64,000 bases of DNA from Escherichia phage UE-S1: sequence record ON568341.1; one strand, written 5' to 3'. The notes below the pieces were generated by a model, which was not told where the DNA came from, did no database searches, and saw only the letters and a list, made by a program, of their open reading frames with translations. This document shows, in pieces, positions 572-60,689 of this stretch. Made by a program: the position numbers and the translations under genes. How positions within the stretch are numbered: position 1 is the stretch's first letter; the number at the start of each line of letters is the position of its first letter.

Positions 572-590
572 AAATATTATCACAGTACTA

Positions 591-619
591 TTGACATAGT
601 TTGATAGTACTGGCATAAT
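591..619 (+). promoter_or_regulatory. sigma70-type promoter (TTGACA-17-CATAAT)
   Basis: TTGACA 591-596, CATAAT 614-619. Confidence 0.55.
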
Positions 620-653
620 AGATTTTATCAACTACACTACTAAGGAATTAAAA

Positions 654-833
654 ATGGCTATCATCGCAAAAACTGAAATCATCGGCCTGGATTCTATCAT
701 CATGACGTTTGAAGATCAAAAAGGTATGTATGTAGTTTCCTATGGTGATTATGTTCGGGAGTATGAAACAGTAGACGAAGCCTTTGAAAGTTACATTCGC
801 CAGGTGAATAAAGCATACGACGATTACCGCTAA
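654..833 (+). CDS. hypothetical small protein (59 aa)
   Basis: ATG 654 after RBS AAGGAA; not in ORF track (below 60 aa); stop TAA 831-833. Confidence 0.5.
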   Translation: MAIIAKTEIIGLDSIIMTFEDQKGMYVVSYGDYVREYETVDEAFESYIRQVNKAYDDYR

Positions 834-860
834 AATATATTACCAGTACTATTAAAGATA

Positions 861-889
861 TTGACAACGTTTGATAGTACTGGCATAAT
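861..889 (+). promoter_or_regulatory. sigma70-type promoter (TTGACA-17-CATAAT)
   Basis: near-identical copy of promoter at 591-619. Confidence 0.55.
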
Positions 890-946
890 AAGTTTTATAA
901 ACAGTAGTCAAATAGTAGTTAACTTAACAAAAGAGAGAGAAACAAA

Positions 947-1090
947 ATGATCGCACTGGATTCATTCATCGATGCAGTTCTGGCAAAAACTGGCGAGGAT
1001 CTGACCGCAGAACAATACGCAATGATCGAGCAATGCCAGCAAGACGGTAAATCGGTGAAAGATACTGTTAAGATTATCCGCAAGATGTAA
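947..1090 (+). CDS. hypothetical small protein (47 aa)
   Basis: ATG 947 after AGAGAGAGAAACAAA RBS; terminator-like hairpin follows. Confidence 0.45.
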   Translation: MIALDSFIDAVLAKTGEDLTAEQYAMIEQCQQDGKSVKDTVKIIRKM

Positions 1091-1096
1091 GATTAT

Positions 1097-1124
1097 AAGC
1101 CCATTAGTTAACGCTGGTGGGCTT
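1097..1124 (+). terminator. terminator-like hairpin (AAGCCCA / TGGGCTT)
   Basis: 7-bp stem, weak T-run. Confidence 0.3.
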
Positions 1125-1196
1125 TAATCATTTACCCTATACAATGCCAGTACTAAACCGTTTATCTCATTAGAATGCATTACAGGACGTTTAACA

Positions 1197-26022: not shown

Positions 26023-26510
26023 TGTCATTGCAGAGTGCATTAAAAGAGGCAAAGAAGATTCATGAGTACATGATTATGGTACAGGAAGGTTTAGTGCCTG
26101 GTGTATACAAAACATCAGATACGGAATTCTTTGTTCTGGACAGGGATGATTATGATGAGTCCGAGGTACATGCTGAAACATTAGTTCTGCACACTGATAC
26201 TGGTGATAGTGACAACTGTGAATATCATATGTACAATCAATACATTAGTTATTGCCGTAATGAAGATATTACCATCTACAACACAGATATTGATGCTGAT
26301 GACACTATCATTCCATATTCAGTTCTGGAAGGTCCGTGGGATAGTGAAGAGTATTACTTTCAGAATAGTACTATCTACAGTGAAGAAGAACTGGATGTTA
26401 TTGTGATTATGTGGTACTTTAAAAGTATTGACTCCAGTAGTTTCTATTTTGATTATGAATATGTAGAGAATACAGTAGGAGAAGGTAATGTCATTACAAA
26501 GTGCTCTTGA
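26022..26510 (+). CDS. FamB paralog, subfamily B2
   Basis: motif EEYYFQNSTIYS; near-duplicate of 24637-25110. Confidence 0.65.
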   Translation: MSLQSALKEAKKIHEYMIMVQEGLVPGVYKTSDTEFFVLDRDDYDESEVHAETLVLHTDTGDSDNCEYHMYNQYISYCRNEDITIYNTDIDADDTIIPYSVLEGPWDSEEYYFQNSTIYSEEELDVIVIMWYFKSIDSSSFYFDYEYVENTVGEGNVITKCS

Positions 26511-42890: not shown

Positions 42891-43364
42891 ATGGAGATTA
42901 AAACTGTTGAAAATGGGAAAATTGATGACATTTTAGACTTGGACGCATTCAAAGTTCATGATATAATGTTTAATGTGAAGGACATTATTCAATGTCTGTT
43001 TTTATGCAGCAAGACTATGCATGATTTTTTTCACAACCCGAATACTAATGTTTTTATACTTACAATCAGTACTGAAAACTCGTTTATCATGGGTATGCCC
43101 ATGAGTACAAATGAACAGTATATTGATTGTGTTATTCGCAATAATGATTGTATTACCCCACAATCTGAAGTTCGCAAAAAGAAAAACACTTACACAATCA
43201 AAGATGATAAAATCATGATGTGTTGCAGTAAAGGATTTATATTGGACAATTTCATCGTCAAAGATAGTTATCATGACTTTAAAATTTCCGAAAATCAATC
43301 CAATGTAGTTCTTTATGCTAGTGATATCGAAAGTTTAACAGTCAAAGATCCTAGTTTGGAGTAA
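42891..43364 (+). CDS. hypothetical protein (157 aa)
   Basis: ORF track. Confidence 0.5.
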   Translation: MEIKTVENGKIDDILDLDAFKVHDIMFNVKDIIQCLFLCSKTMHDFFHNPNTNVFILTISTENSFIMGMPMSTNEQYIDCVIRNNDCITPQSEVRKKKNTYTIKDDKIMMCCSKGFILDNFIVKDSYHDFKISENQSNVVLYASDIESLTVKDPSLE

Positions 43365-45550: not shown

Positions 45551-46405
45551 ATGAAACTTTATCTAATAGTTGACTATAATAAGGATTATGCTGGTAACTT
45601 CACCGAAGATTCGGATGGATATTGCACATCGACTAATGTCAATGTACGTAGCAGTAGTGCTCATGAACATGAATCTTGTAAAAATCTAAAAGATTTTATC
45701 ACATACCGAGCATTTGAAAAGAACTTCTGCCGCAGTAGATATTCTAAGTTTGAGTACCCATTAATTGATGTTCCTGATGAATTGATGTTCCAGCTAATGT
45801 TAACTGGAGTTCAAGATTATGATTATATTGCTTATAATCACATAACAAAGAAGATTTACATTGGAACATCAGTACACGATACTTCCATGTATGCATCATG
45901 CCCAGATGATCGAATGAAGCATAGAAATTCATACTATAGTGGATCAGTTGGTTCAAATAATTCATCAAATAAAAATTCATTCTTTGAGTACGTGTATGAT
46001 TACCATCACGAGAAAAAAGAACGTGAAGATTACTGTATAGAGATTGATAGTACTAATGGATATGAAGACGTAAAAGAAGCTCTTATGCCATACATTATAG
46101 AAAAATACTACAAAGATTTTCAGTACTGTAGTAATTTTCTAATCAGAAATTCTATTCAAATCGGTCGTCAATCCACTGCATACGCTATGTACTACAGTGA
46201 TTCTCCAGTTGTAGCAGGAAATGAAAGGGGTGATATCCTACCAATTCCACGTGAAGATATGACATTCATTTTTACATCTTTTATTGAGGATGATGAATTG
46301 TACGTTAAAAATAAGCATCGTTTCATGCCAAGTAAAATTGAGATTATTAGAAGCATCAGTGTTGATATATTAACCAATTTTACTGAAAAAACTGAATATA
46401 ACTGA
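45551..46405 (+). CDS. hypothetical protein with FamB-like motif (284 aa)
   Basis: motif DELMFQLMLTGV at residues 67-78; RBS GGAGA. Confidence 0.55.
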   Translation: MKLYLIVDYNKDYAGNFTEDSDGYCTSTNVNVRSSSAHEHESCKNLKDFITYRAFEKNFCRSRYSKFEYPLIDVPDELMFQLMLTGVQDYDYIAYNHITKKIYIGTSVHDTSMYASCPDDRMKHRNSYYSGSVGSNNSSNKNSFFEYVYDYHHEKKEREDYCIEIDSTNGYEDVKEALMPYIIEKYYKDFQYCSNFLIRNSIQIGRQSTAYAMYYSDSPVVAGNERGDILPIPREDMTFIFTSFIEDDELYVKNKHRFMPSKIEIIRSISVDILTNFTEKTEYN

Positions 46406-46435
46406 GACAAAATAGAAGTTAATGATATAATGTGA

Positions 46436-46463
46436 GGTGACAGTATATACTGTCACCTTTTTT
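46436..46463 (+). terminator. rho-independent terminator
   Basis: GGTGACAGTAT / ATACTGTCACC stem followed by TTTTTT. Confidence 0.7.
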
Positions 46464-46554
46464 AATCCTGAAAGGTTCCTATAAGGAAATGATTAAAAGC
46501 CTAATCCACTCGAAAATGTAGAGGGTAGATGAGTAGTCCTTTCAGTACGAACAG

Positions 46555-46664
46555 CAGAAGAAACCCGTCAGATGTGGGCATAGTTTGAACCCCTCACGGC
46601 AATGCGGCTCAGAAGAAACCCGTCAGATGTGGGCATAGTTTGAACCCCTCACGGCAATGCGGCT
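46555..46664. repeat. perfect 55-bp direct tandem repeat (2 copies)
   Basis: CAGAAGAAACCCGTCAGATGTGGGCATAGTTTGAACCCCTCACGGCAATGCGGCT at 46555-46609 and 46610-46664. Confidence 0.9.
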
Positions 46665-47083
46665 GTATAAAGAACTCCAATAGGATAAAGAGAGTTCCTC
46701 GATAGACATATAAGGATCGCACCTTACCAATTATCTAAGGGAGATTTCATAAGAAATATGCGGTCGGAATTATACAATATAGTTGCGTCCAAATTTTGTG
46801 AAATCAAATACAAGTACTGGTCATATGGTATTTGTATTATGTGTCGGGATGTTTAAGACCGACGACCGTTGCTACAAGAACCGCGATAGAGAGAAACAGA
46901 GCAACCCGCTTTCGTCTCGTAAGAGAATTCGTGATATGAACTATGTGAAGGCCACCAGCGTCAAACTTTTTTGTTCTTTCCCCTGCGGGGGGATGAAATA
47001 TGCTCAAGCAAACCTCGTCAATATTAATTAAAAGACTTTATAATACTTGTAGAATTGTACATGCACCGCATGGAGAATTCTAC

Positions 47084-47106
47084 TGATGTTGATGTAATCA
47101 ACATCA
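47084..47106. promoter_or_regulatory. palindrome TGATGTTGAT-gta-ATCAACATCA upstream of gene 47137
   Basis: 10-bp perfect arms, 3-bp spacer, ~30 bp before ATG. Confidence 0.4.
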
Positions 47107-47136
47107 CGTATATTCATTGATGTTTCCATAGGAATA

Positions 47137-47682
47137 ATGATGGCATTTATTAAAAAAGAAAAAACTATTACTTATAAAACTTTGAATTTTGATGATTGTA
47201 TTAATCAATCACAGGACGAAAATATTTTTACTGGATATGTGGTTATTAAAGAAAAAGGATGCATTTCTTATATAAAGGAATTGCAAAATGGCATTGAAGT
47301 CACTTCAGTTAAATTACTTCCTACACAAAAACCAACAATATCAAAAGCCCAGTACGGTAATTATTTCGAGGAAAGATACAGTAATAATTTAATAAGTGTT
47401 AAAGCTCATATTGTAAAAGGAGAACTAGAAGGAGAATATAGAAAATTCAACCCACAAGGAAAATGTGTTTGGGTTAAATACTACAATTCAGGTGTTGACA
47501 TAACATCTGAAATTATTGAGTTTTTAGGATTGACATGTACACCTGAAACTCTTCATGACTACAAATTTAATACTGAAGAAGAGTTTAATCTGATGATGCG
47601 TTATGGATCACATTTTAAATTTTTATATGAATATAACGTTGACAGTAGTATTTTTGATAAAATAGTACATAATTGTCTATAA
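47137..47682 (+). CDS. hypothetical protein (181 aa)
   Basis: ORF track; first gene after noncoding island. Confidence 0.55.
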   Translation: MMAFIKKEKTITYKTLNFDDCINQSQDENIFTGYVVIKEKGCISYIKELQNGIEVTSVKLLPTQKPTISKAQYGNYFEERYSNNLISVKAHIVKGELEGEYRKFNPQGKCVWVKYYNSGVDITSEIIEFLGLTCTPETLHDYKFNTEEEFNLMMRYGSHFKFLYEYNVDSSIFDKIVHNCL

Positions 47683-47698
47683 CAAAAGGATTTATATA

Positions 47699-48220
47699 AT
47701 GTCGAAGAAGGATACTTCGAATAAACATTCAGTACATTTCAGTACTGGAAAAGATAACTGGACAACCCCAAAAGATTTTTTTGAAGATTTAGATGAGTTA
47801 TGGGGATTTACACTTGATGCTGCTTGTGTAGATGAGACTGCATTGTGTGATAATTTTTTCACTCCAGAAGATGATTCACTGTCACAGGATTGGGGAAATA
47901 ATATAGTTTGGTTGAATCCACCATATAGTGACTTAAAAACATGGTTATCTAAAGCTGTAGATGCATATAATAACGGAGCAACTGTAGTTATTCTTGTACC
48001 CTCAAGAACCGATACAATTGCTTTTCAGGATTATGCTGCTAAAATATGTGATTGTATTTGTTTTATTAAGGGAAGATTGCGATTTGGTATACCAGAAGAA
48101 CCCGATAAGAAAACTGATTCAGCACCATTTCCTTCGTGTCTGATAGTTCTGGATAAGTACTTAACCACTGCTAAAATCAATTGTCTTAAATCTCTCGGAT
48201 TGGTGATGAAGAATTTATGA
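47699..48220 (+). CDS. dam: DNA N6-adenine methyltransferase, phage Dam type
   Basis: catalytic NPPY motif (WLNPPYSD) and overall resemblance to small phage Dam methylases; 173 aa. Confidence 0.75.
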   Translation: MSKKDTSNKHSVHFSTGKDNWTTPKDFFEDLDELWGFTLDAACVDETALCDNFFTPEDDSLSQDWGNNIVWLNPPYSDLKTWLSKAVDAYNNGATVVILVPSRTDTIAFQDYAAKICDCICFIKGRLRFGIPEEPDKKTDSAPFPSCLIVLDKYLTTAKINCLKSLGLVMKNL

Positions 48221-48750
48221 AAGAAACATGTATATTATCATTTATGAGATGTAACCCAGTCCACAATGGACATGGTTTAGTTTTTGAAAAGGCCAAAACA
48301 TTACAAGAACAGTACAATGCTGATTTAAAAATTTATCTAAGCACTAGTACTGACAATATAAAAAACCCACTACCACCTGAACTAAAAATGTATTATACAG
48401 AGGGATTCTATCCTTCAGTGCAAGAGAACATCTACACAGAGGACAATCTATTTGATATAATGAGAGAACTGGATGGAAAGTACTTAGATGTTCTCTTCAT
48501 ATGTGGTTCTGACCGTATTGATTCTTTTCAGAAAACCCTTGACACTTACAATGGGAAGTTGTATAATTTTTGTAATATAAAAGTAATTCAAGCAGGTATT
48601 GACCGCCAATCAAGTCGATATAGCTCAACACAAATGCGTAAGTTTGCCAAAAATGAAGATTTTGATAGTTTTCGTGAGTTTTTGCCTGGAAATGACGAGA
48701 ACTTAAAAATTCAATTATTTGAAGATGTTATAAAATACATGAGGAAATAA
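48217..48750 (+). CDS. HxGH-motif nucleotidyltransferase (cytidylyltransferase superfamily, NMN adenylyltransferase-like)
   Basis: N-terminal FMRCNPVHNGH matches the (T/H)xGH nucleotidyltransferase signature; ATGA overlap with dam. Confidence 0.5.
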   Translation: MKETCILSFMRCNPVHNGHGLVFEKAKTLQEQYNADLKIYLSTSTDNIKNPLPPELKMYYTEGFYPSVQENIYTEDNLFDIMRELDGKYLDVLFICGSDRIDSFQKTLDTYNGKLYNFCNIKVIQAGIDRQSSRYSSTQMRKFAKNEDFDSFREFLPGNDENLKIQLFEDVIKYMRK

Positions 48751-55506: not shown

Positions 55507-56645
55507 CCCTTTTGCAAATATATGAAGATTTAATGCACTTATGTAATACAAACGATGCATTCTTTTATGTGGATCATAAAAGTCCTGCTGGTGGCACGTA
55601 TCGTGTATTCAGTTATCGCCTAGCATCATACAATGATTTCATGCAACCAAATGCACTAGAAACCCGTGGCTCTATGTGGGAAATTGATGAAGAAGGTAAT
55701 ATGATTCGTTGTGCTGCTCGTACTATGAAAAAGTTCTTCAATGCTTACGAGAATCCTGCTACAATGTTCCCTGCTAACACCACATGCGATGACATTGCGG
55801 TAGTGATGCCTAAATTAGATGGTTCAGTGATCAGTACTTACCGTGATAATGATGGTGAGATTCGTTGTAAATCACATACTGCATTGTATTCTGACCATGC
55901 GATTAACAGTACTCGACTTATTAACGAAAACCAGAATTTGTATCAGTACATCGACGAAGCTGAACGTTTAGGTTACACAGTTAATATGGAGTATACAAGC
56001 CCAGAGTACCGAATTGTATTACCATATCAGGTAGAACAACTGTTTGTATTGAACGTTCGTCATCGTGTGAGTGGTGAGTTGCTATGTGGTAAAGCACTAC
56101 GTGATAAGTTTCCATGTCTTGCACAGTACAGCACTAACATGACAGGCCAAGATATTCATCACACTTTTCCTGTACGAAATACATTCCGTGAAAGTGTTGA
56201 TGAAGTTCATAAAATGCTTGATATTGAGGGGTTTGTGTGCATCTTAAATAATGGGACAATGTGTAAAATAAAGACTGACTGGTACAGTTCATTACATCTT
56301 ACAAAAGATAGTATTATTATTGATTCTCATTTATATGAAGCTGTATTAAATGGTTCAAGTGATGATTTAAAACAATTGTTCAGTACTGATGAATATGCTA
56401 TGCAAAAGATATTAAGAATGGAACAGTTGGTTTTTTCGTGCTATAATGCATTACAAGATGAAGTAGAAAGCTTCGTCAATGAACACAAGCACTTAGAGCG
56501 AAAGGAATTCGCATTGAAGGTTCAGTCGTGTTTATCTAGTGAACTGAATCGTCAGGGCTTGGCATTTGCAATGTATAATAATAAGAAAGTTGATTATAAA
56601 GATACTCTTATCAAATACATGAAAATTATACTAAAAGATTTTTAG
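55503..56645 (+). CDS. rnlA: RNA ligase 1 (T4 RnlA-like ATP-dependent RNA ligase)
   Basis: collinear with T4 Rnl1 as I recall it: FFYVDHKSPAGGTYRVFSY, active-site KLDGS (KxDG), KIKTDWYSSLHLTK, GSSDDLKQLFSTDEY; 380 aa. Confidence 0.9.
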   Translation: MTLLQIYEDLMHLCNTNDAFFYVDHKSPAGGTYRVFSYRLASYNDFMQPNALETRGSMWEIDEEGNMIRCAARTMKKFFNAYENPATMFPANTTCDDIAVVMPKLDGSVISTYRDNDGEIRCKSHTALYSDHAINSTRLINENQNLYQYIDEAERLGYTVNMEYTSPEYRIVLPYQVEQLFVLNVRHRVSGELLCGKALRDKFPCLAQYSTNMTGQDIHHTFPVRNTFRESVDEVHKMLDIEGFVCILNNGTMCKIKTDWYSSLHLTKDSIIIDSHLYEAVLNGSSDDLKQLFSTDEYAMQKILRMEQLVFSCYNALQDEVESFVNEHKHLERKEFALKVQSCLSSELNRQGLAFAMYNNKKVDYKDTLIKYMKIILKDF

Positions 56646-59706: not shown

Positions 59707-59999
59707 ATATAAAAAAATTATTTGAACAAGTAAATTTATTGTACTTGTGTTCAGACGGCTCAGATAAGGAATATAGTGAAGTTTATTTAGAACTATTTAG
59801 AACTGAAATACATCTAATTCGAAGATACCTAATTGATAACAAAACTGAAGTAAAAGTTAGATACCATAATGGTACTTTAAAGAATGGTATAATTATTGGA
59901 TTGATAGTTACAAGAATGTCCAGTAATATTAAAGTTGCAGTAAGATTAATGACTGATGATGGTGTCTACACAATAGAAGCTAATGAGATTATATATTAA
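59703..59999 (+). CDS. hypothetical small protein
   Basis: ATGA overlap. Confidence 0.5.
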   Translation: MNIKKLFEQVNLLYLCSDGSDKEYSEVYLELFRTEIHLIRRYLIDNKTEVKVRYHNGTLKNGIIIGLIVTRMSSNIKVAVRLMTDDGVYTIEANEIIY

Positions 60000-60305
60000 A
60001 TGGATATACAAACATTCAATAAACTAAAGTACTATGATAATGGTTTTGTATTAATAATTAACGAACTTGATAGTATACCATACGAATATCATAATCAAGT
60101 AATGAATATAGTAAAAAATATATGTGAAGAACTAAAAAGTATATTTAAAAATGAATATGTTTATGATTTAGGTAATAATAGAACAAAACTATACATAAAG
60201 AAATTCTGGGGAACACATTGTGGTTTGATGGTCGATTTGGGTTTAAGTTTAGACAATAATTTCGAATCATGTTCATTATATTTGGACGAAATGAGAATCT
60301 CATGA
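60000..60305 (+). CDS. hypothetical protein (101 aa)
   Basis: ORF track. Confidence 0.5.
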   Translation: MDIQTFNKLKYYDNGFVLIINELDSIPYEYHNQVMNIVKNICEELKSIFKNEYVYDLGNNRTKLYIKKFWGTHCGLMVDLGLSLDNNFESCSLYLDEMRIS

Positions 60306-60362
60306 GACATAAGGACATTCGGTGATATAATTTGATTATATCATTAATAAGGAGAGGTTGAA

Positions 60363-60689
60363 GTGAATGGGTCGTTTTTAGAAATACTAGAAAAGACAAC
60401 TGGGATGCTTTCAAGTTCACTAATGCACATTTTCAGTACTAGTAATTTTTACGATTCGCGTGTGTTAGATGTAATTTGTAATAGCTATGTTGAATGTGTG
60501 TCTAATACAATATGTCCATTTAACGCTTATTCAAATGATGGTGTTGAAAAGTTTATTATATCCAAGATTCAATGTGGTTTTGGTGATTGGATAGTTCTAT
60601 GTGAACGTAGTGGTGTGTCTTTATACATCGAAGAAATTGGAAAATTTATATACAAAGGAGTAGAATATGTTAGTCCCAATTATTATTAG
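60363..60689 (+). CDS. hypothetical protein (108 aa)
   Basis: GTG start after AGGAGAGG RBS. Confidence 0.45.
   Translation: MNGSFLEILEKTTGMLSSSLMHIFSTSNFYDSRVLDVICNSYVECVSNTICPFNAYSNDGVEKFIISKIQCGFGDWIVLCERSGVSLYIEEIGKFIYKGVEYVSPNYY

What the first reader, a model, noticed from the sequence alone, without database searches (positions are those of the whole stretch)
46410..47136. 730-bp GC-richer noncoding island with a perfect 55-bp tandem repeat and a gene-proximal palindrome
In a genome with almost no intergenic space this interval has no convincing ORF (the 82-aa track ORF is low-complexity and has no RBS). It contains a terminator (46436-46463), two exact head-to-tail copies of a 55-bp unit (46555-46664), GC-rich hairpin-prone sequence such as CCCTGCGGGGGG, and a 10-bp-arm palindrome (47084-47106) just before the next gene. 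This fits a replication origin or iteron region, a packaging site, or a structured noncoding RNA.
Basis: seen in the sequence. Interest (0 to 1): 0.6.

Follow-up and report, generated by a model that had tools for sequence, protein, structure and literature searches.

The report
Large structured phage RNA gene family
The "noncoding island" is a gene for a roughly 650-nt, intricately folded RNA that matches no catalogued RNA family, is present in 4-5 diverged copies in every RaK2/121Q-type jumbo phage and also occurs in prophages and genomic islands of enterobacteria; the 55-bp tandem repeat is only a recent private duplication of one arm of this RNA.

Summary
The interpretation needs changing.

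The interval is one member of a family of large structured RNAs.
- A 47-sequence alignment gives 67 base pairs in 14 helices. 96.4% of cells are paired, against 77% in shuffles and 38-48% with slid partners. There are 555 compensatory cells, against 151 in shuffles.
- A second subfamily that was not used to build the model fits the 3' domain at 94.3%.
- G-U pairs place the RNA on the + strand.
- Every copy has its own promoter: a TGAAAC/TGAGACA-type -35 box plus an extended -10.

Each jumbo phage genome has 4-5 paralogues about 70% identical; this window holds one. Single copies lie between the integrase and cI in enterobacterial prophages and in an E. coli island.

Rfam 15 gives no match, and I found no description in the searchable literature.

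The 55-bp repeat is absent from all 70 related phage records and from IMG/VR. It duplicates exactly the arm closed by helix H4. It is not an iteron.

The origin and packaging-site readings are not supported. The function is unknown. I infer a trans-acting folded RNA of the ROOL/GOLLD kind.

The parts
46403..46409 (+). -35-like promoter box TGAGACA; it overlaps the stop codon of the upstream ORF 45551-46405
   Evidence: The scan finds GAGACA, a 16-nt spacer and TATAAT with TG, 10 of 12 matches. An equivalent TGAAAC/TGGAAC/TGGGAC box lies upstream of every copy in the jumbo phages and the prophages. It matches the 'divergent RpoD-like' promoter class (TGAAACG -35) described for CBB and GAP32 (PMC5259590).
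46423..46431 (+). Extended -10 element TGATATAAT
   Evidence: The inferred transcription start is near 46437-46439; it has not been mapped.
46434..46463 (+). Hairpin plus T run. It is the intrinsic terminator of the upstream gene and, by position, also the 5' stem-loop of the RNA.
   Evidence: 11-bp stem with 5 G-C pairs, then TTTTAA. The same arrangement (-10 box, then hairpin, then T run) occurs in all syntenic 'a' copies. Other paralogue types have a 5' hairpin with no T run, or no hairpin at all.
46462..47027 (+). Conserved core of the structured RNA: 511 nt plus the 55-nt duplication
   Evidence: nhmmer profile hits at 46464-46610 and 46610-47026 (E = 4e-36 and 8e-93). The consensus structure has 67 pairs in 14 helices.
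46501..46528 (+). Helix H1 (CTACCCTC / GAGGGTAG)
   Evidence: 7 of 8 pairs have changes on both sides; 93.6% of cells paired.
46530..46548 (+). Invariant UGAUGAG junction. UGA (46530-32) is predicted to pair long-range with UCA at 47018-20 (H2). Helix H3 is at 46533-46548.
   Evidence: H3 has 3 of 4 pairs covarying. H2 is invariant in all 47 sequences, so covariation cannot test it.
46551..46666 (+). Arm closed by helix H4 (ACAGC 46551-55 with GCUGU 46662-66). It contains H5 and the invariant GAAACCCGU and CACGGCAAUGCGGC segments, and is present twice here.
   Evidence: H4 has 4 of 5 pairs covarying and 100% of cells paired. In the minimum-free-energy fold, H4 still closes around the doubled arm.
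46555..46609 (+). Tandem duplication, copy 1 (55 nt)
   Evidence: Absent from all relatives.
46610..46664 (+). Tandem duplication, copy 2 (55 nt), identical to copy 1
   Evidence: the nhmmer hit is split at 46610.
46672..46697 (+). Helix H6 (GAACT / AGTTC)
   Evidence: All 5 pairs covary, with up to 4-5 pair types per position.
46811..46864 (+). Helices H8 (46811-46834) and H9 (46842-46864)
   Evidence: H8: 8 of 8 pairs covary. H9: 4 of 5 pairs covary. Both are also kept in subfamily II.
46865..46933 (+). Most conserved domain: GACCGUUGC, H10, H11 (CGCGA/UCGUG), H12 with the loop AAACAGAGCAACCCG, and H13
   Evidence: H11 and H12 are 99.6-100% paired with 4 of 5 pairs covarying. This domain is conserved in subfamily II. 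It was the motif used to find the family.
46978..46992 (+).
   Evidence: C-G alternates with U-G in all six pairs, which is tolerated only on the + strand.
47049..47083 (+). 3' hairpin 1: GTAGAATT..CATGC-acc-GCATG..AATTCTAC
   Evidence: Read from the sequence and conserved in 121Q and G17. It corresponds by position to the 3' hairpin module of other copies. No formal covariation test was done.
47084..47106 (+).
   Evidence: In 121Q and G17 one arm position changes U-A to U-G, which is compatible with an RNA hairpin on the + strand.
47130..47139 (+). Ribosome-binding site AGGA and the ATG (47137) of the next gene, which is the 121Q gp416 homologue
46783..47031 (+). The 82-aa ORF, judged spurious
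   Evidence: It is not conserved in homologues.

Best explanation
The interval is a gene for a large structured non-coding RNA. The core is about 510 nt, or 566 nt here with the duplication. With the 5' hairpin and the two 3' hairpins the unit is about 650-700 nt.

Shown:
- The sequence has a conserved multi-helix secondary structure on the + strand and no conserved ORF.
- Every family member sits behind its own promoter, made of a TGAAAC/TGAGACA-type -35 box and an extended -10.
- RaK2/121Q-like jumbo phages carry 4-5 diverged paralogues per genome.
- Related single copies lie in temperate prophages and a small island of Enterobacterales.
- A second subfamily in other phages keeps the 3' domain and has a different 5' domain.
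- The 55-bp tandem repeat is a private duplication of the arm enclosed by helix H4.

Inferred:
- Transcription starts around 46438, at the hairpin that also terminates the upstream gene.
- The two hairpins at 47049-47106 form the structured 3' end.
- The RNA works in trans as a folded RNA or RNP (scaffold, decoy or ribozyme), in the manner of the phage-associated 'ornate' RNAs ROOL and GOLLD. The several gene copies would supply a high dose.
- The duplication is tolerated because H4 can still close and three other paralogues exist.
For: Structure:
- RNAalifold on 47 non-redundant copies gives 67 pairs, 46 with compensatory changes.
- Pair counts: 96.4% paired against 77.3% in shuffles (0 of 500 reach the observed value) and 38-48% with slid partners. 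Compensatory cells number 555, against 151 in shuffles and 56-86 with slid partners. The covariation score is 0.536, against 0.19 and 0.08-0.11.
- Subfamily II, not used for the model, fits the 3' domain at 94.3%, often with different pair types.

Strand: 273 G-U cells; 96.4% paired on the + strand against 88.1% on the - strand.

No ORF is conserved.

Promoter: found before every copy, and of the class reported for CBB and GAP32.

Copy number and distribution.

Stand-alone gene:
- Paralogue type 'b' is flanked on both sides by opposite-strand genes and ends at a bidirectional terminator.
- In 4 prophages (L103, L106, L109, L120) the next gene is a convergent cI.

Bacterial and metagenomic homologues.

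The duplication is private and coincides with the H4 arm.

Rfam: no match for the window, 11 paralogue loci, or the prophage, island and subfamily II loci, while the SRP RNA control was found.
Against: - There is no expression data. No transcriptome of an enterobacterial RaK2-like phage was found, so the RNA ends, abundance and stability are inferred.
- 41 of 52 jumbo-phage copies are followed within about 30-190 nt by a gene on the same strand with no obvious terminator. Many copies, including the one in this window, could also or instead act as 5' leaders.
- In the window's paralogue type, a hairpin plus T run sits directly after the promoter and might terminate part of the RNA's own transcription.
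- Helix H2 and any tertiary contacts are invariant and therefore untested.
- The trans-acting function is argued by analogy only. No protein partner and no target were identified.
- Fragments of the RNA may already be listed among the short (151 nt or less) candidates of a 2023 survey.
Confidence: 0.7

Rival explanations
1. Cis-acting giant 5' leader. The structured RNA is the untranslated start of the downstream operon and acts on its own transcript, for example by making RNA polymerase resistant to terminators or Rho (as HK022 put RNA or rRNA leaders do), by stabilising the mRNA, or by sensing a signal.
For: 41 of 52 jumbo-phage copies, including the window copy, have a gene on the same strand starting about 30-190 nt downstream with no terminator in between. 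The element always lies directly after a promoter. It occurs several times per genome, as putL and putR do.
Against: Paralogue type 'b' lies between two opposite-strand genes and ends at a terminator. In four prophages the next gene is a convergent cI. Known cis-antiterminator RNAs are 70-120 nt, not 500-700 nt (general knowledge). The downstream genes differ between paralogues.
Confidence: 0.17
2. RNA-primed replication origin. As at T4 oriF and oriG, or with ColE1 RNA II, a promoter-driven structured transcript forms a persistent R-loop, helped by the G run near its 3' end, and primes DNA synthesis. The 4-5 copies would be multiple origins.
For: A promoter is followed by about 0.5 kb of non-coding sequence several times per genome. 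The promoter class is linked to DNA-synthesis genes in CBB. A conserved G run, GGGGGG, lies near the 3' end, followed by AT-rich sequence. The size is similar to ColE1 RNA II (general knowledge).
Against: Homologues lie between int and cI in prophages and in a 10-kb island, which is not where origins of temperate phages are usually found. There are no iterons, and the only repeat is private. Cumulative GC skew shows no inflection. Many unpaired nucleotides are invariant, and a peripheral module has moved between paralogues; both point to a defined three-dimensional RNA fold, not a primer.
Confidence: 0.08
3. One reading: the tandem 55-bp units are iterons or a packaging (pac or terminus) signal acting at the DNA level.
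For: An exact tandem repeat and a palindrome lie in an ORF-free, GC-richer interval.
Against: The repeat has only two copies and is absent from all 70 related records and from IMG/VR. In fEgEco12 the orthologous locus is about 39 kb inside the mapped terminal repeat boundary (PMC13070987). Compensatory changes that include G-U pairs indicate selection on an RNA.
Confidence: 0.02
4. A decayed protein-coding gene or a region of small unannotated ORFs.
For: Several public annotations place small ORFs here. The window has an 82-aa ORF.
Against: No ORF is shared at a common position, the annotations disagree in strand and frame, and indels are not in multiples of three. The conservation pattern is that of paired helices.
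Confidence: 0.01

Closest known systems
ROOL and GOLLD RNAs (large 'ornate' RNAs of phages and prophages; Rfam RF03087 and RF01998; cryo-EM in PMC12286853)
   Same: Size of 500-800 nt; many helices; many invariant unpaired nucleotides; encoded by phages and prophages; no associated ORF; function unknown.
   Different: No similarity in sequence or structure model. The hosts are Enterobacterales, not Firmicutes or rumen and lake samples. There are 4-5 paralogues per genome. It has a fixed promoter cassette and a modular 5' domain with two subfamilies. No adjacency to tRNA genes was seen here. Oligomer formation is untested.
PA5oct ncRNA001-004 (lncRNAs of 236-619 nt defined by RNA-seq in a distantly related jumbo phage, PMC7318152)
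   Same: Long, ORF-free transcripts in a jumbo phage of the wider RaK2-related group. Two are highly expressed. Their function is unknown.
   Different: ncRNA001 and ncRNA002 show no profile similarity. ncRNA003 and ncRNA004 were not tested. No conserved structure has been reported for them.
HK022 put RNAs and rRNA-leader antitermination elements
   Same: They lie next to a promoter, occur in more than one copy per genome, and are structured RNAs.
   Different: put RNAs are about 70 nt and strictly cis-acting. Here some copies have no downstream gene on the same strand.
ColE1 RNA II and the T4 oriF/oriG origin transcripts
   Same: A promoter-driven structured transcript of about 0.5 kb with a G-rich segment; several sites per T4-type genome.
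   Different: There is no evidence of initiation here. Homologues occur in lysogeny modules and islands. The conservation pattern is typical of a three-dimensional RNA fold.
'Divergent RpoD-like' promoters of CBB and GAP32 (TGAAACG -35 with a classic -10; PMC5259590)
   Same: The promoter in front of every RNA copy belongs to this class.
   Different: The published description concerns promoters of protein-coding genes. The RNA behind some of them was not noticed.
Short candidate structured RNAs from the IMG/VR survey (PMC10690425)
   Same: The same data source; motifs near resolvase and Dam methyltransferase genes are mentioned.
   Different: Those candidates are 151 nt or shorter (mean 67). 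No 500-700-nt RNA is described there. Overlap with fragments could not be checked.

Membership tests
Any Rfam 15 family (including ROOL, GOLLD, OLE, raiA, group I and II introns, RNase P, tmRNA, 6S, HEARO, self-cleaving ribozymes) | A covariance-model score at or above the family's gathering threshold | tested here: not met
   There were no hits for the whole window, for 11 other paralogue loci, or for the prophage, island and subfamily II loci. In one search the SRP RNA was found, which serves as a positive control. A permissive E-value scan of 46300-47250 gave only noise, with a best E of 0.54 to a terminator-like sRNA.
Structured non-coding RNA (generic) | Base pairs conserved through compensatory substitutions beyond phylogenetic and positional controls | tested here: met
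Structured non-coding RNA (generic) | No conserved open reading frame | tested here: met
   the small-ORF annotations in public records are inconsistent with one another.
Structured non-coding RNA (generic) | Transcription of the region as a discrete RNA | not testable with these tools
   Only promoter and terminator signals are available. No transcriptome was found.
ROOL/GOLLD-type ornate RNA (functional kind) | Homo-oligomeric RNA-only assembly | not testable with these tools
   This needs cryo-EM or native gels.
Iteron-type replication origin | Three or more direct repeats of about 17-22 bp, conserved among relatives, usually next to an initiator gene and an AT-rich unwinding element | tested here: not met
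   There are two copies of a 55-bp unit, only in this genome. No further copies of the unit exist in the window.
T4-type (promoter plus R-loop) origin or ColE1 RNA II | A promoter followed by a region where the transcript forms a persistent hybrid and primes synthesis | tested here: inconclusive
   A promoter is present. Hybrid formation cannot be tested. GC skew shows no inflection. The context in prophages and islands argues against it.
Packaging site or genome terminus | Coincidence with the physical genome ends or the terminase cleavage site | tested here: not met
   By orthology, fEgEco12's ends are at position 1 and 20,993-bp terminal repeats (PMC13070987), while its RNA locus is at 59,882-60,448. 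The element is multicopy. Read-end data for this particular phage are not available.
Intrinsic terminator (46434-46463) | A G+C-rich hairpin followed by a T run downstream of a gene | tested here: met
   It is annotated as a terminator at the same place in G17, GAP32 and Munch.
Cis-antiterminator RNA (put-like) | Always followed by the operon it controls on the same strand | tested here: not met
   11 of 52 jumbo-phage copies and 4 prophage copies have a convergent neighbour.

The most novel reading that the evidence does not exclude
This is an undescribed class of large, ornate RNA with two subfamilies that share a 3' core. It behaves as a self-contained promoter-plus-RNA cassette exchanged among virulent jumbo phages (4-5 copies each), temperate prophages, small integrative islands and other phages of Enterobacterales. 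It may be a new ribozyme or an RNA-only assembly. The island and prophage copies carry the jumbo-phage-type promoter, so they might be switched on by an infecting jumbo phage and act as a decoy or parasite of the phage's own RNAs.
Probability: 0.5. Interest if true: 0.9.

Novelty: new variant of a known kind. Interest (0 to 1): 0.8.

Why it matters
Large RNAs with complex conserved folds are rare; ribosomal RNAs, RNase P, introns, OLE, GOLLD, ROOL and raiA are the main examples. Each has turned out to be biochemically unusual.

This one occurs in cultivable E. coli phages (121Q, PBECO4, phAPEC6 and many others) and in E. coli, Citrobacter and Serratia chromosomes. It can therefore be studied directly with standard genetics, RNA-seq, chemical probing and cryo-EM.

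Several features suggest an important role in infection that nobody has examined:
- several copies per genome;
- its own promoter;
- a peripheral module that sits at different positions in different paralogues;
- a 3' core shared with a second subfamily.

There is also a practical point. Dozens of public phage annotations place spurious small ORFs on this RNA.

Tried and rejected
- Second copy inside the window: none found by blastn or by three profiles. The other paralogues of 121Q-type genomes lie 55 kb or more away.
- Homology with the PA5oct lncRNAs ncRNA001 and ncRNA002: none.
- The 22 IMG/VR loci and 12 genome loci that matched only the search motif are GC-rich coding sequence and are chance matches.
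- Protein partner shared between prophage and jumbo-phage contexts: none. The only matches were spurious ORFs overlapping the RNA.
- Recurrent neighbours in the bacterial elements are an integrase, a CI-like repressor, a Cro-like repressor and a 286-aa protein with no Pfam or PHROG family. They give no functional clue.
- Plasmids: no homologue.
- Hammerhead-like reading of the CAGAUGAG...CGAA junction: rejected by inspection, because core positions differ and Rfam gives no hit.
- The two 284-aa ORFs upstream are not paralogues.
- Literature searches for a description of this RNA, or for transcriptomes of RaK2-like enterobacterial phages, found nothing.
- No covariance model was built, because the full alignment exceeds the 400-column limit. 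Profile HMMs and direct pair counts were used instead.

Full report
**1. The observation**

The window belongs to a 121Q/PBECO4-type (Asteriusvirus-like) jumbo phage. The interval 46406-47136 lies between the homologues of 121Q gp415 and gp416.
- an exact 2 x 55-bp tandem repeat at 46555-46664;
- GC of 0.38-0.48 against 0.33 for the window;
- a terminator-like hairpin plus T run at 46434-46463;
- a 10-bp-arm palindrome at 47084-47106;
- no convincing ORF.

**2. The repeat is private, but the interval is conserved**

The same gap of about 700 nt, in the same gene order (a ~285-aa gene, the gap, a ~175-aa gene, Dam methylase, cytidylyltransferase), exists in Asteriusvirus, Eneladusvirus, Mimasvirus, RaK2 and unclassified relatives. 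A core of about 510 nt is 69-97% identical across them. None of the relatives has the 55-bp duplication, and its junction is absent from IMG/VR. The repeat is therefore a recent event, or an assembly artefact, in this one genome. It cannot be an iteron array.

**3. A structured RNA**

The alignment shows invariant blocks separated by hairpins whose stems change in a compensatory way.
- On 12 lineages RNAalifold found 69 pairs, 35 with compensatory changes.
- On 47 non-redundant copies it found 67 pairs in 14 helices, 46 with compensatory changes.
- With controls, 96.4% of 3046 cells are paired, against 77.3% in column shuffles (0 of 500 reach the observed value) and 38-48% when partners are slid by 1-3 columns.
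- There are 555 compensatory cells, against 151 in shuffles and 56-86 with slid partners. The covariation score is 0.536, against 0.19 and about 0.1.
- The 273 G-U cells make the + strand fit better than the - strand (96.4% against 88.1%).
- No ORF is conserved.

A second subfamily found in metagenomic phage contigs has a different 5' domain and a homologous 3' domain. It was not used to derive the structure, yet it satisfies the 3' helices in 94.3% of cells, often with other pair types.

**4. Multicopy family**

A copy in a different gene context led to a second locus in every genome. A motif scan of IMG/VR followed by profile screening showed:
- 4 copies in 121Q;
- 5 each in Serratia phage BF and GAP32;
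- 4 each in CBB and Yen9-04;
- at least 2-3 in RaK2.

The copies fall into about 18 clusters at 78% identity. The window contains one copy. A peripheral module (TACAAUAUAGAUCCGUCCAAAAUUUGAG) sits at different positions in the secondary structure of different paralogues. Peripheral modules that move in this way are typical of RNAs with a defined tertiary architecture.

**5. Transcription signals**

Every copy is preceded by a TGAAAC/TGGAAC/TGGGAC/TGAGAC box, about 13 nt of spacer, and TGnTATAAT. In the window this is 46403-46431. It is the 'divergent RpoD-like' promoter class reported for CBB and GAP32. The class occurs four times in the window, and only one occurrence precedes the RNA.

In the window's paralogue type, the terminator hairpin of the upstream gene lies directly after the -10 box, so it is also the 5' stem-loop of the RNA. 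Downstream of the core, most copies have one or two hairpins, often with an ACGnAGUGA loop (30 of 55 copies).

**6. Stand-alone gene or leader?**

41 of 52 jumbo-phage copies are followed by a gene on the same strand with no terminator. Paralogue type 'b', however, lies between opposite-strand genes and runs from its promoter to a bidirectional terminator, about 720 nt in all.

**7. Outside the jumbo phages**

Nine full-length homologues occur in Enterobacterales assemblies, including a complete Serratia fonticola chromosome. In six of them the RNA lies directly downstream of an integrase on the same strand; the integrase is a serine recombinase in four and a tyrosine integrase in two. In five of them a CI-type repressor gene converges on the RNA. 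They carry the same promoter and 3' hairpin module.

In E. coli the element is rare (2 of 5426 genomes). It lies in a ~10-kb island next to ffs, and PGAP annotates nothing there. No plasmid carries it. In metagenomes, 86 of 90 motif hits are true homologues. In four prophages no gene on the same strand follows the RNA, which argues for an autonomous RNA gene.

**8. Comparison with what is known**

Rfam 15 has no match for any version. The PA5oct lncRNAs ncRNA001 and ncRNA002 are unrelated. Searches of the literature found no description. A 2023 survey of IMG/VR lists only motifs of 151 nt or less, which might include fragments of this RNA.

The nearest known kind is the set of large ornate phage and prophage RNAs, ROOL and GOLLD. 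This RNA resembles them in size, complexity and genomic setting but is not a member of either family.

**9. The duplication**

The duplication copies exactly the arm closed by helix H4 (ACAGC/GCUGU), including H5 and two invariant segments. H4 can still close around the doubled arm. Its effect is unknown. The three other paralogues in the genome could buffer any defect.

**10. Verdict**

The interval is a real and strongly supported structured-RNA gene that belongs to a widespread and apparently undescribed family. Its function is not established. I consider a trans-acting folded RNA most likely. A cis-leader role is the main rival, and an RNA-primed origin is a minor one. The iteron and packaging-site readings are rejected, the latter also because the orthologous locus in fEgEco12 is far from the mapped termini.

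Noticed in passing
window 42939-42967, 56419-56447, 60303-60331 (+): Three further matches to the phage promoter class TGRRAC-N11-15-TGnTATAAT. None is followed by the RNA, so this is a general promoter class of the phage.
   Followed up: partly
window 572-1196: An ORF-poor stretch with two near-identical units (CAGTACTATTGACA...TTTGATAGTACTGGCATAAT, sigma-70-like with an extended -10), each ahead of an ORF shorter than 60 aa. They are probably early promoters with small genes.
   Followed up: no
window 26070-26154: ARAGORN calls an 85-nt tRNA-Cys with anticodon ACA. The sequence and the odd anticodon make this call doubtful.
   Followed up: no
L019 1568-2221 (RaK2 ORF014w); L003, L004, L014 (small PHANOTATE ORFs); L009 (g047, g048); L001 2714 (gp416 start): Public annotations place small or opposite-strand ORFs on the RNA, and they disagree with one another. 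They are probably spurious. The 121Q gp416 start is annotated 70 nt further upstream than in G17.
   Followed up: partly
A2 alignment, columns ~370-400 against ~540-570; L111, L109: A ~28-nt module (TACAATATAGATCCGTCCAAAATTTGAG) sits after TAAGGGAG in paralogues a, b and c, inside the H13 loop in d and e, and at both places in the prophage copies.
   Followed up: partly
L143, L149, L160, L183, L186, L195, L196, L210: Subfamily II has a different 5' domain and the same 3' core. Both CGUCA motifs of subfamily I are CGAAG here. The internal one forms a local hairpin (UGAC...GUCA in I, UUUCG...CGAAG in II). The partner of the 3'-terminal one is not identified.
   Followed up: partly
L212 (E. coli LR-29-1, 3.47-3.49 Mb): A ~10-kb island between ffs and ybaA carries the RNA, an IS3-disrupted tyrosine integrase, a resolvase, DUF4326, DUF488 and dual-OB proteins, and homologues of the prophage neighbour genes. 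It could be a satellite-like or defence island.
   Followed up: partly
L068 1586-1612 and equivalent positions in paralogues b and d: A hairpin plus U run resembling an intrinsic terminator lies inside the conserved RNA, about 60 nt before helix H14. In the window only the U run remains (46966-46971).
   Followed up: no
L001 3860-4393 (121Q gp418); window 48217-48750: 121Q annotates this gene as 'ribonucleotide reductase A', while all other records call the orthologue a cytidylyltransferase. This is probably a mis-annotation in 121Q.
   Followed up: no
L115 4775-5490 (Serratia fonticola): Two tandem rof genes lie next to the integrated element, which suggests integration at or near rof with duplication of the target.
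   Followed up: no
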